Positions 1,132 to 36,540 of a stretch of DNA of 37,205 nt are shown here, piece by piece. Source of the stretch: a virus (taxonomy: Duplodnaviria; Heunggongvirae; Uroviricota; Caudoviricetes); IMG/VR virus record IMGVR_UViG_2711768063_000004, positions 1-37,205 of that record, one strand, 5' to 3'. Both the position numbers and the translations under genes were made by a program. The notes beneath the pieces are model-generated. The model ran no database searches, had not been told where the DNA came from, and worked only from the letters and a program-made list of their open reading frames with translations. How positions within the stretch are numbered: the stretch's first letter is position 1; every line of letters starts with the position of its first letter.

Positions 1132-1503
1132 TCATAAGTACCGATATGATTGCGGGGCCGTTATGTTATCACCTAATGAACTTAGATGAAGTGGTTGGTC
1201 ATAGATTTTTAGATTACCAATTTCTATAGCAAAGGCTTTTTCTTTGCTATGAAAATAAGAGTCAAAAAATTGTTTACTGATACCTGCGTATTGGCTTGTT
1301 TTTTCCCATACAATACTCGGCTTATCTTCTATAACATCTGCAATGTCAAATTCAGCAACAACTTTACCGACAGGCATTGTTGAATAAATAACCACAGATT
1401 TTACATCCGTTTTTTTAAAAATACCTTTCCTGAATTCAAACTTCTTCGTCCCATTAAGGATTTTTTCAACAAATTCAGGTTTTATTGACAATAATACTTT
1501 CAT
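1132..1503 (-). CDS. ASCH (PUA-like) domain protein, accessory
   Basis: 123 aa; N-terminus MKVLLSIKPEFVEKILNGTKKFEFRK is typical of ASCH domains. AT-rich; overlaps the upstream gene by 29 nt; same strand as cI and int. Confidence 0.6.
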   Translation of the reverse strand: MKVLLSIKPEFVEKILNGTKKFEFRKGIFKKTDVKSVVIYSTMPVGKVVAEFDIADVIEDKPSIVWEKTSQYAGISKQFFDSYFHSKEKAFAIEIGNLKIYDQPLHLSSLGDNITAPQSYRYL

Positions 1504-2554
1504 CTACAGCACCAAGTTTAATTATATCGTCAAATTGCTCATCGGTTAATTTAACAACACCCCAACGGTTTTTAGGATTTAAACCAATTTCTTTGATTAG
1601 TTTAGCACGGTTTATTCTTTTAGGTAAAGCTAGATTATATGTAAAACTAATAATGTAAGGGTATCTTTTTGTTTGATAGAATTTTTTTAATTCATTTTCA
1701 GAGAATACACTGTATCGTGTACAATACTGTATGAATTCTTTTTCACTATAAAAAGAATCAATATGTCTAATATCTTCAACTACACATAATGACGTTGCGA
1801 CAGAGCGATAATACGCTCTGTTTTCTTTGTCACTTGTTCTGTAAATAACTAAAATGTCATGTCTTTTTATTTTTTTTACGTCATGCATTCTGCATATATA
1901 TATTTTTCTAATGCTATTCGCATGAGATACATCCGTGATTATATCAGGGGACTCTGTGGTGAGTATCGAATCAGGAAACAGTTTTGTATGGAATTCAGGA
2001 TATATGGATAACAGATATTTGTTTTCATCGTTTCTATTATTTATATACGGATAATCAGACAAAATATCCCCTGTAAGATGATTTTTATTCATCTCTCTTA
2101 CTAAGACTTGTTCACTCCCATTAGCAGTTTGTTTTGTAGCAACATGAATAAAACCATAAATTTTGAATAGTCTAATTAAATAATCATGTTTTTCAAAAAC
2201 AGTCACATAGATATCATCTACTTTTTCTTTTAGTGCATGATCAAAAATCTTTTTGAGGAATCTTTGTCCTCGTAGAGTCCCCTTTGGGTTGAATTTAAAT
2301 GTGCCTATTTTTAGATGTTTAGCACGAGTCAAAGGTGGTATTACGTCGTCAATAATACCACGCTCAATTTTCAAGTATAAAAAACCATCAATTGTGTTGT
2401 CATCATTATATAAGACATAAGCTTTTTCTTCGATAGAATTACATTTTTTATTGAACCAATCGATAAATCCATGTTGATAGTCTTTTTTTAAGGAGTCAAA
2501 AAAAACATCGTTAAAATTAACTTCATTAAACTGAATGTGTTTTAATTTTTCCAT
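1475..2554 (-). CDS. Putative GNAT-like acetyltransferase N-domain fused to an ASCH-like C-domain, accessory
   Basis: 359 aa. N-half shows a GNAT-like pattern (IDGFLYLKIE...KIGTFKF...LRGQRFLKKIFDHA...IYVTVF...YGF). C-half restarts with an ASCH-like motif (KYLLSIYPEFHTKLF...RHDILVIYRT). Domain calls are by eye only. Confidence 0.5.
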   Translation of the reverse strand: MEKLKHIQFNEVNFNDVFFDSLKKDYQHGFIDWFNKKCNSIEEKAYVLYNDDNTIDGFLYLKIERGIIDDVIPPLTRAKHLKIGTFKFNPKGTLRGQRFLKKIFDHALKEKVDDIYVTVFEKHDYLIRLFKIYGFIHVATKQTANGSEQVLVREMNKNHLTGDILSDYPYINNRNDENKYLLSIYPEFHTKLFPDSILTTESPDIITDVSHANSIRKIYICRMHDVKKIKRHDILVIYRTSDKENRAYYRSVATSLCVVEDIRHIDSFYSEKEFIQYCTRYSVFSENELKKFYQTKRYPYIISFTYNLALPKRINRAKLIKEIGLNPKNRWGVVKLTDEQFDDIIKLGAVDESIIVNKT

Positions 2555-3687
2555 TTTTTCACCAGTGCAATAAAGTTGGATAATTTTTGTGGTTTAATAA
2601 AGTGAGCGGCAATGTAAGCTACAATAAATGCAATGGTGCAAATTAGATAAATGTCTTTATGCACACCATCTGTTGGAATAAATTTCATTATGTATGCTAT
2701 GGCTGCAGCATAGAACATATATGTAAATATTTTACTAATTTTTGATTTAGTAGTCTTGAACTTCACTACTACAGAGAAGTCACCTAGCCGTGCGCCATCA
2801 TCCTTTTTAGCTTTCCAGTGGTAAATCATAGGATCGTTCTTACCAAAATTGACATTATTTGAAAAGTATTTTTTCCATGTCTCTGATTCAAGAATACGAC
2901 AACCTTGATAGCTTGAACCTGATGCCGATGCTTCGTCAACCATATCTCGTATAACGAAAAAATGATATTTGCTTGGAGTGCAAGAGGCGCTGGCCAGTGT
3001 GGTTGCGACTTCGTTTGGCAAATTTCTTTGTTCGTTAATTCTGAAATCTATAATATCAGAACGTTCAATATTGCTTTTTAAGAATAAATCTTTGGGATAG
3101 AATGTTTTAACAATTGCTTCAACATCAGATTCATTTAGGTTAATTCTGAATCTGATGTAGTAATTGCAATCATTGCAATTATTGCAATTATTGCAATTAT
3201 TGCAATTAGACAAACAATCCTGCAGATGGAAAAATACATATGTCCCATCATTCCTCTTTCTCAATGTGATTCTTTTGTCGAATGCCCCCCCTTGAAAATC
3301 AAGTTTTGTATTAACTATTAGTTTACCTTTTCGTGTTAAATTTAATAATAAGTGTTTCTCGTTTATTGAGTCTTTATTTATGACGTATTCATTAAAAACC
3401 GCGGTGATCAGTTCTTTGCTGCTATCTAGGTTCGTGCTTAAATCAATGAAGTCATCTTTTTCTTTTACAAACGGTAAAAATAAACAGATTGCACCCTGTT
3501 CTGAAATTTCATTATTTTGGGGGCGAGAAAATGATATGCCAAAATCTAGATGATAGCATTTTTGGGATGTGATATTCCAAAAGTTGATGTGTAGTTCGTT
3601 TATAAAATCTGCTTGAGTCTCATTATAATCCTCTCCTGGGCCTTTAGCGTAGTTTCGACATCCCCAAATAGCAAAACTTCTAGACAT
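2542..3687 (-). CDS. Membrane-anchored hypothetical protein with Cys-x-x repeat, accessory
   Basis: 381 aa; two hydrophobic helices at the C-terminus (IFTYMFYAAAIAYIMKF, IYLICTIAFIVAYIAAHFI); internal CNNCNNCNNCNDCN encoded by a 9-bp tandem repeat; AT-rich; starts 31 bp downstream of the cI stop. Confidence 0.55.
   Translation of the reverse strand: MSRSFAIWGCRNYAKGPGEDYNETQADFINELHINFWNITSQKCYHLDFGISFSRPQNNEISEQGAICLFLPFVKEKDDFIDLSTNLDSSKELITAVFNEYVINKDSINEKHLLLNLTRKGKLIVNTKLDFQGGAFDKRITLRKRNDGTYVFFHLQDCLSNCNNCNNCNNCNDCNYYIRFRINLNESDVEAIVKTFYPKDLFLKSNIERSDIIDFRINEQRNLPNEVATTLASASCTPSKYHFFVIRDMVDEASASGSSYQGCRILESETWKKYFSNNVNFGKNDPMIYHWKAKKDDGARLGDFSVVVKFKTTKSKISKIFTYMFYAAAIAYIMKFIPTDGVHKDIYLICTIAFIVAYIAAHFIKPQKLSNFIALVKKWKN
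3163..3207. repeat. Five tandem copies of 9-bp unit ATTGCAAT(T/C) inside the CDS
   Basis: attgcaatc then attgcaatt x4, read directly. ATTGCAAT is itself an 8-bp palindrome. In-frame (3 codons per unit), encoding a Cys-Asn-Asn repeat on the minus strand. Confidence 0.9.
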
Positions 3688-3718: not shown

Positions 3719-4669
3719 TTATATTATAGTCATTAGGTTGAACTGGCATTTTGCAACCGGTTTGAGTTCATTAATTGCACAGTCAAAAGTAATATTTGAG
3801 TTTGAGCTCGTTACTCTTACTTTACCTACCGGTATTCTTATTACCTCGCGAACACTGATTTTTCCTTCAATTTCAACAAACCACAATCCATCGCTAATTT
3901 CGTCAAATTTCCCCTCAGCTAAGTATATCCTGCTGCCATCAAATATTAACATTGGATCTTTAATCGACTTAGGTACAAAGGACTTATCAAAAATGTAGTT
4001 ACCCTTCCTTTCGAGTGCACCATCGGCAAGCACGTACTTGTTTATGCACACAATGTTTTCATTTTGTGAACTTTTATTAAGTCCTTGCCCATCAACAAGC
4101 CATTTCAATGAGAATCCAGTTTCAAGGGCACACTGTATTATCCAATCAGCAGGGAATGAGTCACGCATATAGCGTGTAGCTAATGTACTTTTTGATATAC
4201 CAAGATGATCTGCCAGTGCTTGACGAGTTTTAAAGCCATAAGCCTTAACTATCCGTTCTATTGCCGCTTTTCCTCCCTGATTGAAATCGACTTGATGATC
4301 ATTATGAAAATTAAAGGAAGGTATATGATTGTCACTTTCAACGTCATCTCGCTGGTCGTCTTCGTTGTCTCCATTTGGAACAGTTGAGAGTATTTCTTCT
4401 GCCGCATCAGAACCAAACGCCAGCCATTCCAAAGATGCTCCTGTTTCCATTGAGCATATAACAACCCAATCAGCAGGAAATGTATCGCGAGCATATCTAT
4501 TGGCCATCGTACTTTGTGAAATACCAAGATGGTTACAGAACGCTTGGCGTGACTTGAAGCCATAAGCTTTGAGTATTCGCTCAATGACTTTCTGTCCCCC
4601 ACGATTCTGCATAACAATGGCTTTCGCATCCTCTTTGATATGGCGAAATGTGAATTTTTGAGTTGACAT
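3719..4669 (-). CDS. cI: 186 CI-type immunity repressor with duplicated N-terminal DNA-binding domain
   Basis: 316 aa. Two paralogous N-terminal modules (ERILKAYGFKSRQAFCNHLGISQSTMANRYARDTFPADWVVICSMETGASLEWL and ERIVKAYGFKTRQALADHLGISKSTLATRYMRDSFPADWIIQCALETGFSLKWL), then a C-terminal region with the 186 CI-like motif SDGLWFVEIEG. Divergent from the apl/cox-like gene. Confidence 0.75.
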   Translation of the reverse strand: MSTQKFTFRHIKEDAKAIVMQNRGGQKVIERILKAYGFKSRQAFCNHLGISQSTMANRYARDTFPADWVVICSMETGASLEWLAFGSDAAEEILSTVPNGDNEDDQRDDVESDNHIPSFNFHNDHQVDFNQGGKAAIERIVKAYGFKTRQALADHLGISKSTLATRYMRDSFPADWIIQCALETGFSLKWLVDGQGLNKSSQNENIVCINKYVLADGALERKGNYIFDKSFVPKSIKDPMLIFDGSRIYLAEGKFDEISDGLWFVEIEGKISVREVIRIPVGKVRVTSSNSNITFDCAINELKPVAKCQFNLMTII

Positions 4670-6812: not shown

Positions 6813-7666
6813 GCACCATCCTGAAATGGGCGGGAAATAAAACCGCCATTATGTCCGAACTGAAAAAACACCTTCCTGCTGGCCCGCGACTGGTTGAACC
6901 TTTCGCGGGTTCCTGTGCTGTGATGATGGCGACGGATTACCCCAGCTATCTGGTTGCTGATATTAATCCTGATTTAATCAACCTCTATAAAAAGATTGCC
7001 GCTGATTGTGAATCGTTTATATCTCGTGCCAGAGCTTTATTTGAGGAAGCAAACAGGGAGGTGGCTTATTACAACATAAGGCAGGAGTTTAACTGCTCAA
7101 CTGAAATTACTGACTTCATGAAAGCAGTATATTTCCTGTATCTCAATCGTCACGGTTACCGTGGGTTATGTCGCTATAACAAGAGCGGGCATTTCAACAT
7201 TCCCTACGGTAATTATAAAAATCCGTATTTCCCTGAAAAAGAAATTCGCGTATTTGCAGAGAAAGCCCAGCGAGCAACGTTTATCTGCGCCAGCTTTGAT
7301 GAAACGCTGGCGATGCTGCAGTTGGGGGATGTGGTGTATTGCGATCCGCCTTATGACGGTACGTTTTCCGGCTATCACACTGACGGCTTCACTGAAGATG
7401 ACCAGTATCACCTGGCATCTGTTCTTGAATATCGATCATCAGAAGGTCATCCAGTCATTGTTTCTAACAGTGACACATCCCTGATCCGTTCGCTGTATCG
7501 AAATTTCACTCACCACTACATCAAGGCAAAACGCAGCATCGGCGTGTCGGCTGGCGAGAGTAAATCTGCAACAGAAATCATTGCTGTTTCCGGGGCGCGC
7601 TGCTGGGTGGGATTTGATCCTTCGTGTGGCGTGGATAGTTCTGCTGTGTACGAGGTGCGTGTATGA
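6809..7666 (+). CDS. dam: DNA adenine (N6) methyltransferase, Dam family
   Basis: N-terminus LKWAGNK...LVEPFAGS and catalytic DPPY motif (VYCDPPYDG) match E. coli Dam; start overlaps the upstream stop; GGAGG ribosome-binding site. Confidence 0.8.
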
Positions 7667-10077
7667 GTCATGACGATATGAGCAACTCTAGCGGCTTTAA
7701 CGAGGCCGCTGCAGCATTTTCATGGAACGGCCCGAAAAAGGCCATTAACCCTTATCTGGACCCGGCGGAAGTTGCGCCGGAGTCTGCACTTTCAAACCTG
7801 ATCACTCTGTACGCTGCCGATAATGAGCAGGAACAGCTGCGCCGCGATGCACTGAGTGAGCAGGTCTGGGAGCGTTATTTCTTTAATGAATCTCGTGATC
7901 CTGTCCAGCGCGAAATGGAGCAGGATAAGCTCATTAGCCGGGCAAAGCTGGCGCATGAACAGCAGCGTTTTAACCCGGACATGGTCATTCTGGCGGACGT
8001 CAGCGCCCAGCCCACCCATATTAGCAAGCCGCTGATGCAACGTATCGAATACTTCAGCAGCCTGGGCAGGCCAAAGGCTTATTCCCGCTATTTGCGTGAG
8101 ACGATTAAGCCATGTCTGGAGCGACTGGATTGTGTACGTGACAGTCAGCTGTCTGCTTCTTTCCGTTTTATGGCAAGCCATCAAGGGCTGGAGGGCCTGC
8201 TGATCCTGCCTGAAATGAGTCAGGATCAGGTGAAACGCCTGTCCACCCTGGTAGCTGCGCATATGAGCATGTGCCTTGATGCAGCTTGTGGCGATTTGTA
8301 TGCCACTGATGACGTTAAGCCAGAAGAAATCCGCAAGACATGGGAAAAGGTGGCGGCGGAAACCCTGCGTCTGGATGTCATCCCACCTGCGTTTGAGCAA
8401 CTCCGTCGGAAAAGAAACCGCCGTAAACCCGTGCCCTATGAACTCATTCCGGGTTCGCTGGCGCGTATGTTGTGCGCCGACTGGTGGTATCGGAAATTAT
8501 GGAAAATGCGTTGCGAATGGCGGGAAGAGCAGTTGCGTGCTGTCTGCCTGGTCAGCAAAAAAGCATCTCCCTATGTCAGCTATGAAGCCGTGATGCATAA
8601 ACGTGAGCAGCGCCGTAAGTCGCTGGAGTTTTTCCGTTCTCATGAACTGGTGAACGAAGACGGCGAAACGCTGGACATGGAGGATGTGGTAAACGCCAGC
8701 AGCAGCAACCCTGCGCATCGCCGCAATGAGATGATGGCCTGTGTTAAAGGTCTGGAGCTTATCGCGGAAATGCGCGGTGACTGCGCCGTTTTCTACACTA
8801 TCACCTGTCCGTCACGTTTCCATTCCACGCTCAACAACGGCAGACCCAACCCGACCTGGACAAATGCGACGGTAAGACAAAGCAGCGATTATCTGGTCGG
8901 CATGTTTGCTGCATTTCGTAAGGCAATGCATAAAACCGGGTTGCGCTGGTATGGCGTGCGGGTGGCTGAGCCGCACCATGACGGTACTGTGCACTGGCAT
9001 CTCATGTGCTTCATGCGTAAAAAAGACCGCCGCGCCATCACTGCATTACTGCGTAAGTTTGCCATCCGTGTAGACCGCGAGGAGCTGGGCAACAACACGG
9101 GGCCACGCTTTAAGTCTGAGCTGATTAACCCGCGCAAAGGAACACCGACAAGCTACATCGCGAAATACATCAGTAAGAACATTGACGGGCGTGGTCTGGC
9201 TGGCGAGATCAGCAAGGAAACGGGTAAATCCCTGCGTGATAACGCCGAATACGTTAATGCCTGGGCGTCTCTGCATCGTGTTCAGCAGTTCCGCTTCTTT
9301 GGTATTCCGGGACGTCAGGCTTACCGTGAACTTCGCTTGCTGGCTGGTCAGGCGGCAAGGCAACAGGGTGACAAAAAAGCAGGTGCGCCAATACTGGATG
9401 ACCCGCGCCTTGACGCCATCCTGGCTGCTGCTGATGCTGGTTGTTTTGCCACCTACATCATGAAGCAGGGCGGCGTACTGGTTCCCCGTAAATATCACCT
9501 TATCAGAACCGCTTATGAAATCAACGAAGAGCCGACCGCCTATGGCGATCACGGCATTCGTATTTATGGCATCTGGTCACCCATTGCAGAGGGCAAGATC
9601 TGCACTCATGCAGTGAAGTGGAAAATGGTTCGTAAGGCCGTTGACGTTCAGGAGGCGGTAGCCGACCAGAGCGCTTGCGCCCCTTGGACTCGTGGCAATA
9701 ACTGTCCCCTTGCTGAAAATTTGAACCAACAAGGGAAAGACAAATCAGCTGATGGGGATACTAGGACGGACATTACCCGCATGGATGACAAGGAGTTGCA
9801 CGATTACCTGCACAGTATGAGCAAAAAAGAGCGCCGGGAACTGGCTGCAAGGTTACGCCTGGTGAAACCGAAACGGCGTAAAGACTACAAACAGCGAATT
9901 ACAGACCATCAGCGACAGCAGCTCGTCTATGAACTGAAGTCCAGAGGATTTAATGGCAGCGAGAAAGAGGTCGATTTACTCCTTCGCGGCGGCAGTATTC
10001 CGTCAGGAGCAGGCCTGCGTATCTTCTATCGGAACCAGCGTTTGCAGGAAGATGATAAGTGGCGAAACCTGTATTAA
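7663..10077 (+). CDS. A: Replication initiation endonuclease, P2 gpA family (rolling-circle HUH nickase)
   Basis: 804 aa; HUH-type motif [13 protein letters not shown] and a tyrosine pair in YIAKYISK; last large early gene as in P2/186. Confidence 0.8.
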
Positions 10078-10663: not shown

Positions 10664-10822
10664 GAAAAGTTGCTGGCGTCTGAACTTGGTTCTGGCGTCA
10701 GCAAGGTTGAACAACGAGTACAGTGAGGCGTTAGGTGTGGCGTTTATTTGATGAGTGAACGCCCGTTCTGCGACAGGTTCGGAGATTAAGGTTGAAACTA
10801 CGGGCAAAATACCATCTTTTTC

Positions 10823-11248
10823 CTACTTAATTGAGTCCAGTAACAAGTTACAGTTACTCTCATTGTAGAGAGAACGAGCAATTAGTGTTACCTGCTTTCC
10901 ATTCATTCCCGGCTTATCCCATAACACAGCTTCTTGCGACGCCACAAATTCAGCATAATCAATTATGCGTTGTTCGTGATCTGGTTCCTCATAGCCAAAG
11001 TATGAGAGCGCATCGTTGTAAGCGTGGTAAGCTGCTTTCTGTAATATCTTGATATCGGCTGTAGGTACTTGCTCCGTGTAGCTAGGATCTAATTGTGTGC
11101 TACTGCCATAGAATGCACATGAAAGGTAAGATATTGATTTCTGTTGAGCTTTAGTTCCTTTCTCATAGTTTTTAGCTGTTACCGCCTGAACTGGGACGCT
11201 AACAAAGCTTGCAACCAGAATTAAAATTAATACGTAAAAGCTTTTCAT
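10823..11248 (-). CDS. Secreted/periplasmic hypothetical protein (moron at the tin/old position)
   Basis: 141 aa with an N-terminal signal peptide (MKSFYVLILILVASFVSVPVQA then VTA); alone on the minus strand between the Tum/DinI module and the cos-like site; AT-rich. Confidence 0.55.
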   Translation of the reverse strand: MKSFYVLILILVASFVSVPVQAVTAKNYEKGTKAQQKSISYLSCAFYGSSTQLDPSYTEQVPTADIKILQKAAYHAYNDALSYFGYEEPDHEQRIIDYAEFVASQEAVLWDKPGMNGKQVTLIARSLYNESNCNLLLDSIK

Positions 11249-11522
11249 TTTGACCTCAGCCGAAACGTTAGAGAGACTATCGAAATTTGTAAAACCCGTG
11301 GCGATTCAGTTTGAGATCCTCCCCCTTACATGATTTTTAATCAAATATATGCTTTTGTAAGCATACCTGTTAACCGAATTATTCATTTTTAGAGATCTTC
11401 CTACATACTGATTATGCCCGCTGAGGAGTTCACCTTGCGTAAAGTCCGATTCGCTTTACTCGTCTGTGCATGTCTATGCTGCATGAGATTGCATGATCGT
11501 TTGAGGATCGTTTTTGCTAAGG

Positions 11523-11546
11523 CCCGCCAGAACTGGCGGGCTTTTG
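11523..11546 (+). terminator. Rho-independent terminator-like hairpin
   Basis: Perfect 9-bp stem gcccgccag / ctggcgggc with loop aa, followed by TTTT. Confidence 0.55.
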
Positions 11547-11589
11547 CGTTGATCATGCACCTGCATGAAAACCACTACATAAAGCGGGC

Positions 11590-11608
11590 AGGCGTGGCGG
11601 GGATACGA
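11590..11608. other. Candidate cos (cohesive end) site
   Basis: ggcgtggcggggatacgag: the first 13 nt match the GGCG(T/A)GGCGGGGA start of the 19-nt cohesive ends I recall for 186/P2. Position (after the early region, before Q) fits. Recalled from memory, not verified. Confidence 0.4.
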
Positions 11609-11723
11609 GCGCGCGTAAACCAAGTAGTATGTATCATCTAACTTTTACGAACAAGGTGTCCAAAATCTACGATAAATAGGTTAGACTTGTAGTACTTACA
11701 GTAATAATGCAAAAGGAAATAGC

Positions 11724-12419
11724 ATGAATCAGGTTCATGAGTCACATCAAATTAATCTTTTCACAACCAATGAAGAAATATCGCCTAGTCCTGCTATAAT
11801 TTTTCCAGTTCTACAGGAGTTAAGCGGATTTAGCCTCATCCCAACATTTGGACAGGAAGTAAATGCTTTATCTGGTGAGATGAAACAGATATTGATTATG
11901 ACAAATCCAGAGCAAACTTATCGTATTGAATTTGCAAGCCATGCAATCGTTATAAATGCTATGTCTACAAATCATGATGAATTTGTTGAGAAATCTGTAA
12001 ATGTTATCAGTGCAATGTTAAAGATATTTCCCAATAAGAAATTTAATAGAATTGCATTATTAAATGCACAGATTTTTACTGCTTCTTTGGATAAATATCA
12101 ACAGTTGTATGATAAATTATTCACATACAATGAAGTTTCTCCTTTTGAGTGGGATAACAGAATTGCGCTTCGTAAAAATATTGAATTTAATAATGAGGCA
12201 ATAAATAGCATCAATGCTATCAGTCGCAAAGAAGTTGCTGTTATGAATCATAATTCAGGCAAGCCATTTGATGCGATAATGTTTGAAATCGACTCTAATA
12301 CGTTGCCAACAAATACCGATTATAGATTTGATTTTAATCAGGCGATTCAAGTGTTGCGTAATTTGAATGATAATAACAGAAATTCACTGAGTGTACTGCG
12401 TCGTTATATTGAGTTATAG
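11724..12419 (+). CDS. Hypothetical protein, gene 1 of cos-proximal accessory cassette
   Basis: 231 aa, AT-rich, no recognisable motif or P-loop; AAGGAAA ribosome-binding site. Confidence 0.6.
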   Translation: MNQVHESHQINLFTTNEEISPSPAIIFPVLQELSGFSLIPTFGQEVNALSGEMKQILIMTNPEQTYRIEFASHAIVINAMSTNHDEFVEKSVNVISAMLKIFPNKKFNRIALLNAQIFTASLDKYQQLYDKLFTYNEVSPFEWDNRIALRKNIEFNNEAINSINAISRKEVAVMNHNSGKPFDAIMFEIDSNTLPTNTDYRFDFNQAIQVLRNLNDNNRNSLSVLRRYIEL

Positions 12420-12427
12420 GAACTATT

Positions 12428-13075
12428 ATGGCAGGTTATAGCGATTATATATTTAATATAGCGGCAAAGGTTATCAGCAATGCTGTGCCTATTAATGAGT
12501 TTAATGTAATAACTAATCGTTTTTTTAACAATCTCCATGATGAATTTAAAACGTCGCGTTTTCATGTGCATGATTCAGCCTCAAGTAATATGATTGCTGA
12601 GTCTGGTAACGTTGGAAGGATTAATTCACAAAGTAGTGAGATAGCCTTCGATATACAAGTGCAGCGTTGTTTAAAAAACGCGTTGCTATATCTTAAGTCT
12701 GAAAACTATATTGAAGGCGAGATAACTAAAACTCAAATTTATCTTGAATCTTTGTCTGAAAAAAACAAGTCATTATTTTTAGAAGTCTTTCAACGTGTCT
12801 GGGTTTCAATCTATTACTCACCAGAGTATCTTCGAAATTTTTTATACATAGCCGCATCTATGGACTATGAATTGATGAAGGATCGCGCAGATGTCCTTAT
12901 ATTAGGATGTTCTGCACATGAAGATGTTTTAGTTCAGGAGGCAGCTATTAGGGCTTTCGAATCTTGGGAAAATCCAGAGCATGCTTCACATTTGCGTGCA
13001 ATGAGAAAGTTTAATGAAAAATGGATTGAAGATTATAGACAAAGTACTATAAATTTTTTGGAGAGTCTAAAATGA
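12428..13075 (+). CDS. Hypothetical protein, gene 2 of cos-proximal accessory cassette
   Basis: 215 aa, starts 8 bp after gene 1; no recognisable motif. Confidence 0.6.
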   Translation: MAGYSDYIFNIAAKVISNAVPINEFNVITNRFFNNLHDEFKTSRFHVHDSASSNMIAESGNVGRINSQSSEIAFDIQVQRCLKNALLYLKSENYIEGEITKTQIYLESLSEKNKSLFLEVFQRVWVSIYYSPEYLRNFLYIAASMDYELMKDRADVLILGCSAHEDVLVQEAAIRAFESWENPEHASHLRAMRKFNEKWIEDYRQSTINFLESLK

Positions 13076-13587
13076 CATTCCTATTAAGGAAGTTTTCATA
13101 CCCAAAATGGGAGAAAAACAAAGGATTATCTCCAGATGAGTTTTCAGCTGATTCAATTACTGGCTGTACGCGCACAACTGCGAATAAGCTTTCAGTTTGG
13201 AGATCAGAAACCACTGATTTTAAATCTGATTATGTAGAAAAACTTATTGTTGCTTTAGCTACGACGATGCCGTCACCTGCTACTATAGACCTTGTTTGGT
13301 TGAAAGAAGAATGGTTTTTTGAACATGGAATTACATTGGAAGATAATCCAGGTGATACTAAATATGAAAGTGTGAATAATCTTCATAGCGACATTGCAAA
13401 TCTAAATCATAGGCGTCTAGCTATGGTAGGTTCACATATGCTTGAACAATTAGAGGGGGCAGGTAATTATCTCAGGGTTAGTAAAAGAGAACTGATTTCA
13501 CTTGTGGTTAAGTGGATGGAAAAAGAAGGTGAGTTTACTATAGAGGATTTGGAGGAAAAATGGCAGGAACAGTTGAATAAATTATAA
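13072..13587 (+). CDS. Hypothetical protein, gene 3 of cos-proximal accessory cassette
   Basis: 171 aa; ATGA start/stop overlap with gene 2 suggests translational coupling; no recognisable motif. Confidence 0.6.
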   Translation: MTFLLRKFSYPKWEKNKGLSPDEFSADSITGCTRTTANKLSVWRSETTDFKSDYVEKLIVALATTMPSPATIDLVWLKEEWFFEHGITLEDNPGDTKYESVNNLHSDIANLNHRRLAMVGSHMLEQLEGAGNYLRVSKRELISLVVKWMEKEGEFTIEDLEEKWQEQLNKL

Positions 13588-13617
13588 ATTATTCAACCTA
13601 TTGCGCTAGCCGATTAA

Positions 13618-13652
13618 CCCCATTTAAGTATATCAAATGGGGTATTATGTTT
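13618..13652 (+). terminator. Rho-independent terminator after the accessory cassette (possibly bidirectional with Q)
   Basis: 8-bp stem ccccattt / aaatgggg with a 9-nt loop, followed by T-rich tattatgttt; lies between the cassette stop and the Q stop. Confidence 0.5.
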
Positions 13653-13666
13653 CCTATATTTGTATT

Positions 13667-14701
13667 CTATGGTGTTAATTCATAGCTTCTAAAATTAATT
13701 ACTTCTTTAGCACACCATTTGTTTAGCTCTTTCATTTGTTCTTGTAAAGGAAGTAGTTCGTTTCTAACAAAAACCTTACTCGCCTTCTCCACATCCCCAA
13801 ACCCCCCAACATTATTCGGCATGATCCCCATCATCTGCGGCGGCACGCGGTGTGCCGCCATCATGTCATCGCGACTAACATTTTTGATATTCAAAAACTC
13901 ATCCTTCGCCGCGACTTCTGACAGAGGAATAATCTGAAGGCCGTCTTTTTTGCCGTTAGGCGAGTACATAAACAGGTTGCGGAAGTTGCCAGGGCCTTTG
14001 GCGCTTTTCATCGCATTGCGGAGGTTGTTCACATCCTCCTGGTTCTGCGCGGCATCGGTCATGTACATGATGAAGCCTGCATGGCTGCCGTTAATGTAAT
14101 ACTTCCGGCGGAACAGCGTGGCGGACTCGTTGAGCAGGGCTGACGGAATGGCAGAAAGATAACCTGGTAGGCCGTAGATCTCCTGGTTGATGTCAGGTTC
14201 CATCAGATGAAAAATGCTGCCTTTCGTGAACTGATACGGCTGGGTTGTCATACCGTATTGCACAAACCAGTAGGTATCCAGGTCTAACCCGCGTCGGGTG
14301 TATTTTGCCAGAGCAGGCTCAAGGGCGATAACTTCACCGAAGCGGTTCGTGCGTTTCTCCAGGTAGGCGTTACCAAATACCAGATAGTCCTGCACAAAAC
14401 GTGAAAAAGCCTGCTGGCTGAGCAGCGGGTGAGGGATGTAGGTACTGGTCAGAATGTTGCATTTCACCGCAATTGGTGAGCTGTGATGCACGGCGGCGCG
14501 GAAGGTTCGTGCCAGTCCGTCAAAGCTGACGGGCGGCTCATACCAGCGATCCATCTGTACGCATTCCACATAGTCCAGCAGTTCACGGCGGTCCAGAACA
14601 GGAACGGGATCGCCAAAGCTGAATGCTTCGGCTGAAGTTTGGCTTTTATGCTTGAGCTGATTCGTCGCCGCAGCGCGGTTTTTCTTACTCTTTCCCATCA
14701 A
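13667..14701 (-). CDS. Q: Portal protein (P2 gpQ family)
   Basis: 344 aa, the P2 gpQ length as I recall it; precedes the large terminase on the same strand. Confidence 0.8.
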   Translation of the reverse strand: MMGKSKKNRAAATNQLKHKSQTSAEAFSFGDPVPVLDRRELLDYVECVQMDRWYEPPVSFDGLARTFRAAVHHSSPIAVKCNILTSTYIPHPLLSQQAFSRFVQDYLVFGNAYLEKRTNRFGEVIALEPALAKYTRRGLDLDTYWFVQYGMTTQPYQFTKGSIFHLMEPDINQEIYGLPGYLSAIPSALLNESATLFRRKYYINGSHAGFIMYMTDAAQNQEDVNNLRNAMKSAKGPGNFRNLFMYSPNGKKDGLQIIPLSEVAAKDEFLNIKNVSRDDMMAAHRVPPQMMGIMPNNVGGFGDVEKASKVFVRNELLPLQEQMKELNKWCAKEVINFRSYELTP

Positions 14702-24910: not shown

Positions 24911-26637
24911 GCACAAAATTTTATACCCTGCTGACGGATATTGGCGCGGCGAAACTTGCCAGCGCCGCCGCGCTCGGTGTGCCGCTAAAAATTACCCATA
25001 TGGCGGTGGGCGATGGCGGCGGAGCATTGCCGACGCCGGACGCAAAGCAGACGGCATTGGTAAATGAGAAACGCCGGGCTGCGCTGAATATGCTCTATAT
25101 CGACCCGCAGAACAGCAGCCAGATTATTGCTGAACAGGTGATCCCTGAAAACGAGGGCGGTTGGTGGATACGTGAAGTGGGCCTGTTTGATGAGTCAGGG
25201 GCATTGATTGCCGTGGGGAACTGCCCGGAAAGCTATAAACCGCAACTGGCTGAAGGCAGCGGGCGTACCCAGACCGTGCGCATGGTGCTGATTACCAGCA
25301 GCACGGACAATATCACCCTGAAAATCGACCCTGCTGTCGTGCTGGCAACCCGTCATTATGTAGATCAACAAATAGAGATTCATGAGCAATCGCGCCGCCA
25401 TCCTTCTGCGTCTTTGACAGAAAAGGGATTTGTACGTCTGTATAGCGGTGTGGAAAGCAATGATGAAACAGTCGCTGCAACGCCAAAAGCAGTGAAAATA
25501 GCGATGGATAATGCCAGCGCCAGACTGGCAAAAGACCGCAATGGTTCTGATATTCCCAATCCGGCACTGTTTGTTCAGAATCTGGGATTGAAAACGACTG
25601 TTGATAAAGCTGCATCAGCGATTCAGCCAGGAGATTATGGAATTGGCCTGGCTTATCTGAAAACCATGGGAACCAAATCGCAATTTTTTGCTTATGGTAC
25701 AGCTGTCGGCTATCCAGAAGTGCCAACACATGGTGCTGGTTTCCAGGCCTGTTACAACGACAATCGACGTGCACAAATTTATGTCGCTAATGATGGCAAG
25801 ATGTACTGTCGATTCAGCATGTTATCGAAAATTGCCGATGATGAAACACCGTGGAATCAGGTGTTCACCAGTGCACATTATCCAGAAGCATCAGTGAGTG
25901 TTAAAGGAATGGTGCAACTGGGGAACGATGTAAACAGCGTGTCAGAAAATGTTGCGGCGACATTGAAAGCGGTAAAAATTGCGATGGACAACGCCAGCGC
26001 GAGACTGGCAAAGGACCGCAATGGTGCTGATATTCCTGACCCGACTTTGTTTATTCAGAATCTGGGACTTAAACCGACGGTTGATAAGGCTGAAAGTGCT
26101 CTACAACAGGGAGCATACGGAATCGGTAGCAATAATAACTACGAAATGGGTGAGGTTTCACAGTTTCTTGCATATTCAGGTAATGCAGATGAAGTACCAT
26201 CGAATGGTGCAGGTTTTCAGGCTGCGTATAACAAGAACAGACGCGCGCAGATTTTCATCACCGGAGCAGGGGAAATGTATCACCGTTTCAGCGGCTCTGA
26301 TACGGTTAAAGACAATACAACACTATGGCGTCGGGGTGTTTGTGAAGATGAATTTTCATTTGGCAGCAATTATCACCGAATAACTGGCGGTGTGCTGAAG
26401 CAGTTTTTTAACAGTTATTTTTCCGGGGCAACGGGTGTGGTGAATAAAGAGTATCAGGTGAATTTTCCGACACCATTTGCCCGTCAGTGCTGGTACGTGA
26501 TCCCCGTTTTCCGTTCGTCACACGGTGGGAGTGTTGAGGGTGTCGCCATTACAGCTATTACTGCAACTGGCTTTACTCTGAGCATCACCGGAGATAACGG
26601 TGGATGGAATATTGGGTTTATTGCGGAGGGGGTCTGA
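24907..26637 (+). CDS. H: Tail fiber protein (P2 gpH family) with internally duplicated distal module
   Basis: 576 aa; N-terminal region matches P2 gpH as recalled (MS.KF.T..T..GAAKLA...MAVGDGGG...SYKP.LAEGSGR); two diverged copies of a ~115-130 aa module beginning AATPKAVKIAMDNASARLAKDRNG. Confidence 0.8.
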   Translation: MSTKFYTLLTDIGAAKLASAAALGVPLKITHMAVGDGGGALPTPDAKQTALVNEKRRAALNMLYIDPQNSSQIIAEQVIPENEGGWWIREVGLFDESGALIAVGNCPESYKPQLAEGSGRTQTVRMVLITSSTDNITLKIDPAVVLATRHYVDQQIEIHEQSRRHPSASLTEKGFVRLYSGVESNDETVAATPKAVKIAMDNASARLAKDRNGSDIPNPALFVQNLGLKTTVDKAASAIQPGDYGIGLAYLKTMGTKSQFFAYGTAVGYPEVPTHGAGFQACYNDNRRAQIYVANDGKMYCRFSMLSKIADDETPWNQVFTSAHYPEASVSVKGMVQLGNDVNSVSENVAATLKAVKIAMDNASARLAKDRNGADIPDPTLFIQNLGLKPTVDKAESALQQGAYGIGSNNNYEMGEVSQFLAYSGNADEVPSNGAGFQAAYNKNRRAQIFITGAGEMYHRFSGSDTVKDNTTLWRRGVCEDEFSFGSNYHRITGGVLKQFFNSYFSGATGVVNKEYQVNFPTPFARQCWYVIPVFRSSHGGSVEGVAITAITATGFTLSITGDNGGWNIGFIAEGV

Positions 26638-27071
26638 TGAGTTATTTTTACAGTCCATCAAGAAATGCATTTTATAACAGTGAACTGAAATCTGATTATT
26701 ACGATGCTCTCGATGCGTGGCCGGATGACTGTATTGAGGTAAGTGATGCAGTCTATCAGGAGTTTTATCTTGGTTATCGGGAAGGGTACAAAATGGTTGC
26801 AGGCACTGATAACCAGCCATCATGGGAAGAACGTCCACCATTGACCTATGAGGAACAGGTGGAACAGGCAGAAATGATGAAACAGATGCGCATTAATGAG
26901 GCTAACAACCTGATTAATGAAAAACAATGGCCATCAAAATTACAGCTTGGCAGGCTGAACGAAATGGAGACAGCCAGATTTAATGCGATGCTGGATTATC
27001 TTGAGTTACTTGAAAATATTAATGTAAGTGATGCCCCGGATATAGTCTGGCCTTTATCACCAGAAGTCTGA
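26637..27071 (+). CDS. G: Tail fiber assembly chaperone (P2 gpG family)
   Basis: Start overlaps the H stop (TGATG); 144 aa; positioned after H. Confidence 0.65.
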   Translation: MSYFYSPSRNAFYNSELKSDYYDALDAWPDDCIEVSDAVYQEFYLGYREGYKMVAGTDNQPSWEERPPLTYEEQVEQAEMMKQMRINEANNLINEKQWPSKLQLGRLNEMETARFNAMLDYLELLENINVSDAPDIVWPLSPEV

Positions 27072-32944: not shown

Positions 32945-34041
32945 ATTTCAGCTCTGAACTGCTTAACAAAGGCAACAAAACTCCCGCATTCAGCATCAGT
33001 ATTGAAGGCAGGGATATCACCACTGTGTTGGACAACCGCCTGATGGGGCTGACGCTGACGGATAACCGGGGATTTGAAGCGGACCAGTTTGATCTGGAGC
33101 TGGACGACACCGATGGAAAAATCGTGCTGCCGCGCCGTGGTGCGGTCATTACGCTGGCGCTGGGCTGGAAGGGGCAGCCGCTTTTCCCGAAAGGGGCATT
33201 CACGGTGGACGAGATTGAACACACTGGCGCACCGGACCGCCTGACTATTCGGGCGCGAAGTGCTGATTTTCGTGAAACGCTGAATACCCGCCGTGAAAAG
33301 TCGTGGCACAAGACCACCGTCGGGGAAGTGGTGAAGGAAATAGCCGCGCGGCACAAGCTGAAGATGGCACTGGGTAAAGACCTGTCGGATAAGCCCGTGG
33401 TACATATAGACCAGACCAATGAGAGTGACGGCAGTTTTCTGATGCGGCTGGCGCGCCAGTACGGTGCTATTGCGTCGGTGAAAAATGGCAATCTGTTATT
33501 CGTCCGGCAGGGACAGGGCAAAAGCGCCAGCGGTAAACCTCTGCCGGTGATCACTATCACACGCAAGGACGGCGACAGTCACCGCTTTACCCTGGCAGAT
33601 CGCGGAGCCTATACGGGCGTAATTGCTAGCTGGTTGCATACCCGCGAACCCGCGAAGAAAGAAAGCACCACGGTGAAGCGTAAGCGCAGGACCGCAAAGC
33701 AGAAGAAAGAGCCGGAAGCGAAGCAGGGCGATTACCTGGTGGGTACGGATGAAAACGTGCTGGTACTTAATCGCACTTATGCCAACCGGAGCAACGCTGA
33801 ACGGGCAGCGAAAATGCAGTGGGAACGCCTGCAACGCGGCGTTGCGTCATTCTCGCTACAACTGGCGGAAGGTCGGGCAGATCTCTACACGGAAATGCCA
33901 GTGAAAGTCAGTGGCTTTAAACAGCCGATAGATGATGCGGAATGGACCATTACGACTCTGACACATACCGTCAGCCCGGATAACGGTTTTACGACCAGTC
34001 TGGAGCTTGAAGTGAGGATTGATGATTTCGAAATGGAATGA
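32941..34041 (+). CDS. D: Tail protein / late control gene D product (P2 gpD family)
   Basis: 366 aa; last gene of the tail operon, immediately before ogr as in P2. Confidence 0.7.
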   Translation: MNFSSELLNKGNKTPAFSISIEGRDITTVLDNRLMGLTLTDNRGFEADQFDLELDDTDGKIVLPRRGAVITLALGWKGQPLFPKGAFTVDEIEHTGAPDRLTIRARSADFRETLNTRREKSWHKTTVGEVVKEIAARHKLKMALGKDLSDKPVVHIDQTNESDGSFLMRLARQYGAIASVKNGNLLFVRQGQGKSASGKPLPVITITRKDGDSHRFTLADRGAYTGVIASWLHTREPAKKESTTVKRKRRTAKQKKEPEAKQGDYLVGTDENVLVLNRTYANRSNAERAAKMQWERLQRGVASFSLQLAEGRADLYTEMPVKVSGFKQPIDDAEWTITTLTHTVSPDNGFTTSLELEVRIDDFEME

Positions 34042-34131
34042 TTCTTCGCAATGGAGAACTTTTAAGTTTGCAAAATGGAATAATGCGGTATCATTATTGT
34101 GAATTTAGCAAAAATGGGGAGAACTCGAAAA

Positions 34132-34350
34132 ATGATGATTTGCCCACTGTGTGGAAGTGCCGCCCATACTCGCAGCAGTTTTCAGGTATCTTCATTGACC
34201 AAAGAGCGTTACAACCAGTGCCAGAATATTAACTGCAGCCATACTTTTGTTACCCATGAAACTTTTGTTCGTTCGATTGCAACGCCAAACGAGTCAAATC
34301 CGGTTCAGCCGCATCCAATGAAATCAGGACAGGTGGCGCTCTCTCTTTGA
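34132..34350 (+). CDS. ogr: Late gene transcription activator Ogr (zinc-finger)
   Basis: 72 aa from the internal ATG; CPLCG...C.N.NCS motif and overall similarity to P2 Ogr as recalled. Confidence 0.85.
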   Translation: MMICPLCGSAAHTRSSFQVSSLTKERYNQCQNINCSHTFVTHETFVRSIATPNESNPVQPHPMKSGQVALSL

Positions 34351-34436
34351 CGCTGCCGCCATTTTGTCGCCATCGATAAAAAACAGTGTTTCTAACATCA
34401 TGATTTTAAAAGGCATAAATTTCAGGCAACAAAAAA

Positions 34437-34473
34437 CCCATCAACCTTGAACCGAAATGGCGGGGTTGATGGG
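34437..34473 (-). terminator. Rho-independent terminator-like hairpin, probably for host ybjL
   Basis: 10-bp arms cccatcaacc / ggttgatggg on the plus strand, preceded by AAAAAA (a T-run after the hairpin on the minus strand); about 110 bp downstream of the ybjL stop. Confidence 0.45.
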
Positions 34474-34585
34474 CTCCACAAAATGGGGACATCAAAGAAA
34501 AGCAGTGGCACTAATTAAGACTGATGCCGTGCGGAAAAGTTCTGCGGTTGTGCAAAAAAATTTCATTTTCAGGGCAACTTCAGTT

Positions 34586-36271: not shown

Positions 36272-36540
36272 GGAGGCTAACTTCTTGTTTACTAGTAAGC
36301 TGTTGAAAGAAATGGTAATTTACGATAATGTTTTTTACCAGAATTCAGGGCGCAGATTCATTCAGCGCACCTAAACGATAGTAAAGTAACAATATATTTT
36401 ACTAGTGTAATCACATTAGGTATCAACGGCTATATGAATTGCGTTGGCCTATATTAGCATGGAATGCGAAGCGGCTTTATCTTACTGAACGCCACACTGG
36501 CGAAAAATGTGTTCGATAGACGCAGTGTCAGGAGGAACGA

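What the first reader, a model, noticed from the sequence alone, without database searches (positions are those of the whole stretch)
11724..13587. Cos-proximal three-gene cassette of unknown proteins in the P2/186 variable hotspot: top candidate for an undescribed system
Three co-directional genes (231, 215 and 171 aa) with an 8-bp gap and an ATGA overlap form a compact operon with its own terminator hairpin (13618..13652). They are strongly AT-rich against a GC-rich phage backbone and are inserted in the interval between the replication/cos region and the portal gene, the known hotspot for anti-phage cargo in P2-like phages (old, tin and others). I see no Walker A/P-loop and no motif matching any defence family I know (nuclease, ATPase, reverse transcriptase or TIR/Sir2-type signatures not evident by eye). 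The operon lies opposite to Q and is insulated from late transcription, so lysogen expression is plausible.
Basis: partly seen in the sequence, partly recalled or inferred. Interest (0 to 1): 0.85.

Follow-up and report, generated by a model that had tools for sequence, protein, structure and literature searches.

The report
Widespread unclassified three-gene mobile cassette
The three unknown genes next to the cos site of this P2/186-like E. coli prophage are one copy of a strictly conserved, horizontally mobile three-gene operon found in phages, tiny plasmids and chromosomes across bacterial phyla; it belongs to no described family and is most likely an untested anti-phage (abortive-infection type) system.

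Summary
Genes A (231 aa), B (215 aa) and C (171 aa) are real, tightly coupled and AT-rich. They form a ~2.1-kb unit (11622-13713) between cos and the portal gene that is swapped wholesale between near-identical prophage backbones. It is not Rst_3HP or DefensePredictor DS-21, and has no PADLOC, Pfam or NCBIfam assignment.

The C family has 1,722 50%-identity clusters. A-B-C order with ~4-nt overlaps is kept in P2-like and lambdoid prophages, Acinetobacter phages, 4.4-7.5-kb plasmids (where it is the sole cargo) and environmental chromosomes.

- **B:** hypervariable N-terminus plus a HEAT-like domain.
- **C:** weak but coherent resemblance to ADP-ribosyltransferase-fold enzymes, plus a winged-helix-like tail.

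A sister variant is listed untested in Rousset 2022. DefensePredictor scored B and C homologues as predicted novel defence genes, but did not test them.

Best reading: a new three-component defence or abortive-infection module with C as effector. This is inference, not demonstration.

The parts
11591..11608 (+). cos-like site of the P2/186-type prophage. It marks the left boundary of the conserved backbone block (11466-11621) and is context, not part of the cassette.
   Evidence: Pattern match with 2 mismatches; chance expectation 0.06. The block 11466-11621 is ~94% identical in relatives that carry other cassette variants.
11622..13713 (+). The exchangeable unit: ~100 bp of upstream leader, genes A-B-C and the downstream hairpin.
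   Evidence: blastn against L002, L021, L018 and L028: backbone identity stops at ~11621 and resumes at ~13714-13749. GC 0.31-0.39 against 0.53-0.60.
11622..11723 (+). Cassette-specific leader with a GGA ribosome-binding site. Presumed to hold the cassette's own promoter (inferred).
   Evidence: Sequence read. No consensus sigma-70 site was called here. The inference rests on the trio being sole cargo of small plasmids and on the leader being swapped with the genes.
11724..12419 (+). Gene A (231 aa): duplicated beta-alpha-beta4-alpha two-layer fold, TIGR04255-like position. Candidate nucleotide-binding or enzymatic regulator.
12428..13075 (+). Gene B (215 aa): hypervariable Ser/Asn-rich N-terminal segment plus a conserved ~140-aa HEAT-like helical domain (V-x-EAAIRAFE-x-W). 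Candidate sensor or scaffold.
   Evidence: Alignments. The top PDB profile hits are all HEAT proteins, though not significant (E >= 0.085). DefensePredictor gives the homologue WP_000240425.1 log-odds 7.07 with a weak HEAT hit.
13072..13587 (+). Gene C (171 aa): the best-conserved component. N-terminal ~110 aa is ADP-ribosyltransferase-like; the C-terminal half is winged-helix-like. Candidate effector.
13617..13643 (+). Stem-loop (9-bp stem, 9-nt loop) between the convergent genes C and portal Q. Possible terminator.
   Evidence: Fold -12.4 kcal/mol, z -0.76. Not called by the terminator scan.

Best explanation
The cassette is one member of a large, previously unclassified family of self-contained three-gene operons (A-B-C). 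The operon moves horizontally between temperate phages, small plasmids and chromosomes. It most likely acts as an anti-phage or anti-mobile-element immunity module of the abortive-infection (toxin-antitoxin-like) type.

Proposed working, all inferred:
- The three proteins are made from the cassette's own promoter in the lysogen and form a complex. The ~4-nt gene overlaps imply stoichiometric co-translation.
- C is the effector. It combines an ADP-ribosyltransferase-like domain with a winged-helix-like domain. Like DarT, Tpt1 or CmdT, it would use NAD+ to modify, or bind and block, nucleic acid.
- B is a HEAT-like scaffold. Its hypervariable N-terminus is the specificity or sensor element, or a labile restraint.
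- A has a kinase-like fold and takes the place held by TIGR04255 proteins in some loci. It would bind a nucleotide or ligand, or catalyse a step that gates C.
- Infection releases or activates C, stopping phage replication at the cost of the cell.

Shown here: the anatomy, the strict three-gene conservation, the mobility and the fold resemblances. Inferred: the defence function, the roles of each protein and the chemistry.
For: 1. Obligate trio.
- All 60 first-batch sequences with C have B upstream, and A upstream in 59; the exception (L036) has a split A.
- In 78 further loci (74 from the metagenome scan, 4 from contig look-ups), B precedes C wherever more than ~130 nt of upstream sequence exists.
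- An A-position gene is present in all but one of about 50 loci with room.
- Across 45 distinct trios the median A-B and B-C gap is -4 nt, and divergences co-vary with Spearman 0.48-0.55.

2. Mobility as a unit.
- Carriers include the P2-like hotspot, lambdoid post-replication regions, the ends of Acinetobacter prophages, an Aminicenantales chromosome, and small plasmids.
- It is the sole cargo of a 4,375-bp ColE1-type plasmid.
- GC is below the flanks in every background examined.
- Several ~40%-identical variants sit in ~95%-identical backbones.

3. Location. The cassette is in the validated P2 defence hotspot (PMC9122126). In the P4 hotspot, 6 of 8 randomly chosen unknown loci protected against phages (bioRxiv 10.64898/2026.02.27.708500).

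4. Independent prediction. DefensePredictor scored the B homologue at log-odds 7.07 and the C homologue at 4.6. The cluster representative of that C homologue is this window's protein C.

5. Folds.
- B: HEAT-like with a hypervariable N-terminus.
Against: - There is no experimental phenotype anywhere in what I could search.
- There is no macrodomain or other obvious antidote, and no recognisable nuclease, membrane or NADase effector.
- The 97 neighbours of 13 long metagenomic loci show mobile-element genes and housekeeping genes, but only 2 R-M methylases and 1 PADLOC candidate. That is no clear defence-island enrichment.
- The A-TIGR04255 link is sub-threshold, and hhalign with a shallow profile was negative.
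- Being sole cargo on tiny plasmids fits plasmid addiction as well as it fits defence.
- One prophage carries a frameshifted B with intact C (L004). That sits awkwardly with B being an essential antitoxin.
Confidence: 0.5

Rival explanations
1. The trio is a selfish addiction (post-segregational killing or stabilisation) module. It secures maintenance of the prophage, plasmid or island that carries it, and anti-phage activity is absent or incidental.
For: - It is the sole accessory cargo of 4.4-5 kb ColE1-type plasmids and of a 7.5-kb MOBQ plasmid.
- It is carried by many unrelated mobile elements.
- It has tight translational coupling and a toxin-like small ADP-ribosyltransferase-like protein.
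Against: - Three components of 170-250 aa are unusual for classical toxin-antitoxin pairs, and no DNA-binding antitoxin fold was identified in A or B.
- B's hypervariable N-terminus looks like a diversifying recognition element rather than a housekeeping antitoxin.
- The cassette sits in a hotspot that is experimentally enriched for defence, and DefensePredictor gives it positive scores.
- Addiction and abortive-infection defence are not mutually exclusive.
Confidence: 0.2
2. The trio is a mobile-element fitness or counter-defence module, for example one that interferes with host immunity or with rival elements. It would benefit the carrier element rather than protect the host cell.
For: - It is found mostly on phages and plasmids.
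- It sits in moron positions that also hold anti-defence and superinfection-exclusion genes.
- ADP-ribosyltransferase-like enzymes are used offensively by phages such as T4 (Alt, ModA, ModB); this point is from my own knowledge.
Against: - It is also present on large chromosomal contigs next to housekeeping genes, in phyla far from any known carrier phage.
- In the P2 backbone it is placed opposite the late operon, typical of lysogen-expressed cargo.
- Anti-defence systems are rare in P2 elements: 28 of 1,511.
Confidence: 0.1
3. The trio has a non-conflict cellular function, such as a small regulatory or metabolic complex or a stress-response module, and simply hitch-hikes on mobile DNA.
For: - There is no significant hit to any defence family.
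- Several metagenomic neighbourhoods are housekeeping.
- A's kinase or ligase-like fold would also fit a metabolic enzyme.
Against: - GC is below the flanks in every context examined, and the distribution is patchy (6 of 5,426 E. coli genomes).
- Divergent variants are exchanged in identical backbones, and B has a hypervariable segment. These are hallmarks of conflict systems, not housekeeping.
Confidence: 0.15
4. The cassette is the already validated P2-hotspot system of three hypothetical proteins (Rst_3HP, Rousset 2022) or another named system such as DefensePredictor DS-21.
For: - It has the same hotspot and the same description: 'three genes with no clear predicted domain'.
- DS-21 is also three hypothetical proteins.
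Against: - Rst_3HP proteins are 335, 365 and 228 aa, and blastp against A, B and C gives only E >= 0.85.
- DS-21 proteins are 365, 140 and 211 aa, with a PD-(D/E)xK effector and unrelated sequences.
- None of the three N-terminal sequences appears in Rousset's tables, and no family motif appears in DefensePredictor's.
- PADLOC 2.0 gives no hit at E <= 1.
Confidence: 0.03

Closest known systems
Rst_3HP (Rousset et al. 2022, pFR109, E. coli E1114)
   Same: A three-gene cassette of hypothetical proteins in the same P2 gpA-portal hotspot, next to cos, expressed from its own promoter. It protects against P1.
   Different: There is no sequence relationship (blastp E >= 0.85). The protein sizes are 335/365/228 aa against 231/215/171 aa.
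DarTG (DarT DNA ADP-ribosyltransferase plus DarG macrodomain antitoxin)
CmdTAC / PD-T4-9 (ADP-ribosyltransferase toxin, antitoxin, SecB-like chaperone)
   Same: A tripartite operon in which an ADP-ribosyltransferase-type toxin is restrained by two partner proteins, one of which senses infection. This comparison is from my own knowledge.
   Different: No PADLOC hit at E <= 1. A's fold matches kinase, glutamine-synthetase and TBP-like sandwiches, not SecB. The gene order differs: the putative effector comes last.
Tpt1/KptA RNA 2'-phosphotransferase
   Different: The domain order is reversed. E 0.35 and TM 0.38 are below fold-level significance, and there is no sequence similarity. The R-H-R-R catalytic tetrad (my own knowledge) was not identified in C.
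TIGR04255 family (NCBIfam, uncharacterised, sporadically distributed)
   Same: Proteins of about 250 aa. Bona fide members occupy the A position directly upstream of B and C homologues in L122, L129 and L135. Five of 17 A proteins give collinear sub-threshold hits.
   Different: The window's A scores 13.8 bits against a cutoff of 30. hhalign with a two-sequence profile was negative. The family itself has no known function.
Guanidino (phosphagen / protein-arginine) kinase catalytic domain, e.g. McsB
   Different: Sequence identity is 6-11%, and there is no Pfam kinase hit. A is much smaller, and active-site equivalence was not tested.

Membership tests
P2-like hotspot cargo (Rousset 2022) | Variable gene content between replication gene A and portal gene Q, adjacent to cos, in an otherwise conserved P2/186-like backbone | tested here: met
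   gpA at 7663-10077, cos-like site at 11591-11608, portal at 13667-14701. The backbone is ~95% identical in relatives, while 11622-13713 is replaced.
Rst_3HP | Homology of the three proteins to Hp1, Hp2 and Hp3 of pFR109 | tested here: not met
   The best blastp E-values are 0.85-1.7, over alignments of at most 76 residues.
Any PADLOC-DB 2.0 system (including PD-T4-9/CmdTAC, DarTG, RES-Xre and the PDC candidates) | HMM match of at least one component | tested here: not met
   No family at E <= 1 for A, B or C. There was no recurring hit among 75 diverse C-family members.
DefensePredictor DS-21 and other validated DS systems | Sequence identity or homology to the tested proteins (Tables S6 and S8) | tested here: not met
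   The DS-21 proteins (365, 140 and 211 aa) are unrelated. The family motifs ITGCTRT, PFEWDNR, EAAIRA and TLSVW are absent from all tables.
ADP-ribosyltransferase (ART) superfamily (protein C) | Split beta-sheet NAD+-binding fold | tested here: inconclusive
ADP-ribosyltransferase (ART) superfamily (protein C) | Catalytic H-Y-[EDQ] or R-S-E triad on strands beta1, beta2 and beta5 | tested here: inconclusive
   R6/K7 on strand 1 and S41 on strand 2 are invariant or nearly so. The residue on the later strand is an invariant His105, and D107 is not conserved outside Enterobacteria. Model coordinates could not be inspected.
DarTG | Macrodomain antitoxin encoded next to the ADP-ribosyltransferase | tested here: not met
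   Neither A nor B gives a Macro-domain hit. A's fold is kinase- or TBP-like, and B is HEAT-like.
TIGR04255 (protein A) | NCBIfam HMM score at or above the curated cutoff of 30 bits | tested here: not met
   The window's A scores 13.8 bits (E 0.039), and the best of 17 relatives has E 0.0022. True members (130 and 71 bits) replace A in L122 and L129.
Guanidino kinase / glutamine-synthetase-type fold (protein A) | Fold similarity plus conserved ATP- and substrate-binding residues | tested here: inconclusive
HEAT/ARM repeat proteins (protein B) | Tandem helical hairpin repeats recognised by repeat profiles or by structure | tested here: inconclusive
   The top PDB profile hits are only HEAT proteins, at E 0.085-0.38. 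DefensePredictor's table reports an HHblits HEAT hit at probability 50.7.
Anti-phage defence system (functional class) | Reduces phage propagation when expressed in a sensitive host | not testable with these tools
   Only indirect support is available: the hotspot location, the mobility, the machine-learning prediction and the conservation pattern.

The most novel reading that the evidence does not exclude
A-B-C is a new, phylogenetically broad three-component immune system. The C family alone has at least 1,700 50%-identity clusters, none of them in Pfam or PADLOC. Its effector would found a new clade of ADP-ribosyltransferase-fold, nucleic-acid-directed enzymes with an unusual conserved Arg/Lys, Asp, Ser and His set. 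That effector would be controlled by a kinase-fold protein of the uncharacterised TIGR04255 superfamily and by a HEAT-like sensor with a hypervariable recognition arm. If so, it would give the first function to TIGR04255 and to two unclassified families.
Probability: 0.3. Interest if true: 0.8.

Novelty: categorically new. Interest (0 to 1): 0.68.

Why it matters
If the trio is an immune system, it adds a widespread three-protein architecture built entirely from unclassified families. It would give a first functional handle on TIGR04255 proteins. It may also reveal a new branch of NAD+-dependent nucleic-acid-modifying enzymes with non-canonical catalytic residues.

The system is unusually tractable:
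- The unit is only 2.1 kb and carries its own leader.
- It occurs naturally in E. coli.
- Natural variants of about 40% identity sit in isogenic prophage backbones, which is ideal for mapping specificity to B's hypervariable arm.
- It occurs as the only cargo of 4.4-kb plasmids, which allows a clean test of defence against addiction.

It also shows that roughly a fifth of P2 hotspots that look "defence-less" can hide systems that current annotation tools miss.

Tried and rejected
- **Rst_3HP identity:** rejected by blastp and by protein sizes.
- **DS-21 and other DefensePredictor-validated systems:** rejected.
- **Family libraries:** PADLOC, Pfam and NCBIfam gave nothing above threshold. PHROGs gave only families of unknown function.
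- **Sequence-profile searches of the PDB:** nothing significant with shallow or broad alignments of A, B or C.
- **The upstream 141-aa secreted ORF (10823-11248) as part of the system:** rejected. It lies in a separate variable slot on the other side of cos, on the opposite strand. It accompanies many unrelated cargoes in Rousset's Table S5 and is absent from L021-type relatives.
- **hhalign of A against TIGR04255:** negative with a two-sequence profile, so homology is not claimed.
- **AFDB50 fold search:** the library was unavailable.
- **Defence-island enrichment test on metagenomic neighbours:** no clear enrichment.
- **Promoter scan:** no consensus site in the leader.
- **Literature:**
  - Brenes & Laub 2025 is not held.
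  - The metagenomic-selection paper has no supplements held.
  - Accession and keyword searches were empty.
Full report
**1. The observation**

The window is a P2/186-like prophage of E. coli. It is 100% identical to strain EC21Z-137 over the cassette.

- Genes: A is at 11724-12419 (231 aa), B at 12428-13075 (215 aa) and C at 13072-13587 (171 aa). They are co-directional, with an 8-nt gap and an ATGA overlap.
- Composition: GC is 0.31-0.39 in the cassette against 0.53-0.60 in the late region.
- Position: a cos-like site at 11591-11608 lies 115 bp upstream of A, so the cassette lies between cos and the portal gene Q (13667-14701, minus strand).
- Hairpin: the claimed hairpin is real (9-bp stem, 13617-13643) but not distinctive (z = -0.76; not called).
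- Boundaries: I compared relatives that share about 95% backbone identity. Homology runs to about 10734, covers the cos block 11466-11621, and resumes at about 13714. The interval 11622-13713, which holds the leader, A-B-C and the hairpin, is replaced as a unit.
- Neighbouring slot: a separate variable slot (10735-11465) holds an unrelated 141-aa secreted ORF on the minus strand. That ORF accompanies many other cargoes and is not part of the system.
- Frequency: this variant occurs in 6 of 5,426 complete E. coli genomes and a sister variant in 2. The cassette is accessory, not core.

**2. It is not a known system**

- PADLOC 2.0, Pfam-A and NCBIfam give nothing above threshold. PHROGs gives only three families of unknown function.
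- The validated P2-hotspot system of "three genes with no clear predicted domain" (Rst_3HP, PMC9122126) has proteins of 335, 365 and 228 aa with no similarity to A, B or C.
- The cassette is absent from Rousset's tested sets. A sister variant (WP_021823668/69/70) is listed in their Table S5A as "hypothetical + hypothetical + hypothetical" cargo.
- DefensePredictor (PMC13092281) Table S10 lists the B homologue WP_000240425.1 (log-odds 7.07, weak HEAT hit). It also lists the C homologue WP_244582234.1 (log-odds 4.6), whose cluster representative WP_029487422.1 is this window's C. Both are labelled "predicted novel defense gene".
- Neither protein is among DefensePredictor's tested systems. DS-21, their three-hypothetical-protein system, is unrelated.
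- The 2026 P2/P4 preprint tested only unknown loci from P4.
- Brenes & Laub 2025 could not be read. This is the main literature gap.

**3. The trio is a conserved, mobile operon**

The word-indexed homologue search suggested small enterobacterial families of 12-25 clusters. Context look-ups then showed the same A-B-C order in several backgrounds:

- P2-like prophages carrying variants about 40% identical.
- An unrelated Klebsiella lambdoid prophage, between DnaB/MT-A70 and the nin-like region.
- Temperate Acinetobacter phages, at the prophage end.
- An Aminicenantales chromosome contig, with pairwise homology of each protein: A E=9e-12, B E=4e-13, C E=4e-19.

An exhaustive profile search found 1,722 representatives (50%-identity clusters) of the C family at E<=1e-3, and 743 at E<=1e-10. 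All of the 150 best hits listed are stand-alone proteins of about 160-200 aa, apart from a few fragments, with no domain fusions.

Conservation of the three-gene order:

- In the first 60 sequences, B always precedes C, and A precedes B in 59. The exception, L036, has a split A.
- In 78 further loci (74 from the metagenome scan, 4 from contig look-ups), B precedes C wherever more than about 130 nt of upstream sequence is present.
- An A-position gene is present in all but one (L082) of about 50 loci with room.
- Across 45 distinct trios, both intergenic distances have a median of -4 nt and a maximum of 23 nt. The three proteins' divergences co-vary with Spearman 0.48-0.55.

Other features of the family:

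- GC is below the flanks in every background examined.
- Complete trios are the only accessory cargo of a 4,375-bp ColE1-type Klebsiella plasmid and a 5,042-bp Enterobacter plasmid. They are the main cargo of a 7.5-kb MOBQ Acinetobacter plasmid.
- The 97 neighbours of 13 long metagenomic loci include integrases, Rep_trans, IS66 and IS200 transposases, phage GPA and DnaB. They also include two R-M methylases and one PADLOC candidate, alongside many housekeeping genes. These are mobile or variable regions without clear defence-island enrichment.

**4. The proteins**

*Protein A* (model pLDDT 88, pTM 0.85)
- It is a duplicated beta-alpha-beta4-alpha two-layer sandwich.
- Q44, R109, T193 and R201 are invariant across the diverse alignment; E45, E142, D190 and N192 are nearly so. 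They lie mostly on strands, which suggests a ligand- or nucleotide-binding sheet face.
- TIGR04255 is the only recurring weak hit: 5 of 17 members, best E 0.002, collinear.
- In L122 and in L129/L135 a bona fide TIGR04255 protein (130 and 71 bits) sits in the A position upstream of B and C.
- A shallow hhalign test was negative. I therefore claim positional equivalence and possible remote homology only.

*Protein B*
- Its N-terminal segment is unalignable and varies from roughly 0 to 200 aa. It is followed by a conserved helical domain of about 140 aa ending in AL-x-H-x-D-x-EV-x-E-x-x-IRAFE-x-WG.
- Its top PDB profile hits are all HEAT-repeat proteins, but none is significant (E 0.085-0.38). 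This agrees with DefensePredictor's weak HEAT annotation.

*Protein C* (model pLDDT 90)
- It is the most conserved component. The median pairwise identity is 35%, against 28-30% for A and B.
- Most of the remaining hits are LysR-type winged-helix domains that match the C-terminal half.
- Foldseek finds nothing significant, but it ranks Tpt1 first (E 0.35, probability 0.69, TM 0.38) and lists many KptA entries, NarE and DarT.
- Across 75 diverse members the invariant residues are W13, D27, S41, W43 and H105. R6, K7, K12, T30 and T35 are nearly invariant.
- An Arg/Lys on strand 1 and a Ser on strand 2 fit the usual positions in ADP-ribosyltransferases. The usual acidic catalytic residue is not conserved.
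- I rate the fold assignment as likely (about 0.6) and NAD+-dependent catalysis as possible (about 0.35).

**5. Interpretation**

These features match what is known of mobile immunity modules:
- strict three-gene linkage with translational coupling;
- wholesale exchange of divergent variants in identical backbones;
- low GC;
- carriage by unrelated phages, small plasmids and islands;
- a hypervariable arm on one component;
- residence in an experimentally validated defence hotspot;
- an independent machine-learning prediction.

The most economical mechanism is an abortive-infection, toxin-antitoxin-like complex. C (ADP-ribosyltransferase-like plus winged-helix-like) would be a nucleic-acid-directed effector. 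B would be a scaffold or sensor, and A a nucleotide-binding or enzymatic gate. None of this is shown.

The main rival is plain addiction, which the small-plasmid carriage supports equally well. Counter-defence and non-conflict functions are less likely but not excluded.

Two degraded copies (frameshifted B in L004, split A in L036) show that the system can decay. They also show that losing full-length B is not immediately lethal, at least in that context.

**6. Novelty and verdict**

No component belongs to a described family. The operon family is large and cross-phylum. Its only prior traces are an untested catalogue entry and an untested machine-learning prediction.

As a system family I rate it categorically new, while the general category of prophage-hotspot cargo is well known. 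Interest is 0.68: this is a strong, tractable candidate backed by unusually clean comparative evidence, but it has no phenotype and only a tentative mechanism.

Noticed in passing
window 1132-3687 (minus strand): A second AT-rich cargo cluster (GC 0.29-0.35) lies between the integrase (1-1053) and the CI repressor (3719-4669). It holds an ASCH-domain protein (123 aa) and two unknown proteins of 359 and 381 aa with overlapping reading frames. This is the secondary int-CI hotspot of P2-like phages. Relatives such as L002 carry only a 63-aa YdcA-like gene there.
   Followed up: partly
window 10823-11248 (minus strand): A 141-aa ORF with a signal-peptide-like N-terminus (WP_000834899, PHROG 7437, unknown function) occupies its own variable slot between DinI and cos. 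It co-occurs with many unrelated hotspot cargoes in Rousset 2022 Table S5 and is absent from L021-type relatives.
   Followed up: partly
L060 15-1156 (NZ_CP015912.1): In one E. coli prophage the slot upstream of the sister trio carries a ComF-family (phosphoribosyltransferase-like) protein plus a hypothetical protein. This recalls the DprA+PRTase system of Rousset 2022. The hotspot can therefore hold two cassettes side by side.
   Followed up: no
L004 8704-9362; L036 8665-9356: Two naturally degraded copies exist. In one E. coli prophage B is split by a frameshift into 45-aa and 154-aa ORFs. In a Klebsiella lambdoid prophage a divergent A is split into 140-aa and 82-aa ORFs. C is intact in both.
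   Followed up: partly
L122 648-1397; L129 877-1731; L135 699-1553: Bona fide TIGR04255-family proteins (130 and 71 bits) sit directly upstream of B and C homologues in place of the A family. This links an uncharacterised NCBIfam family to the operon.
   Followed up: partly
L004-L006 1-1011: Some P2-like relatives have a 558-aa SNIPE/T5orf172/MUG113-domain protein next to the CI repressor, where others have the integrase.
   Followed up: no
L035 6607-8055: In a GC-rich host (flanks 0.56-0.58) the trio lies next to an SRAP/YedK-like protein and a UmuD/LexA-like peptidase. In Acinetobacter phages it lies next to a UmuC fragment, and in enterobacterial phages next to DinI. The association with SOS-related genes recurs, and its meaning is unknown.
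   Followed up: no
window 25501-27000, 34001-34500, 36001-36500: There are further local GC dips (0.40-0.46) within or after the late region, possibly tail-fibre or other accessory segments. I did not examine them.
   Followed up: no
L015 7088-7657: The Aminicenantales chromosomal trio is followed by a staphylococcal-nuclease (SNase) domain gene and preceded by methyltransferase and aspartyl-protease genes. It is unclear whether these are functionally linked to the trio.
   Followed up: no
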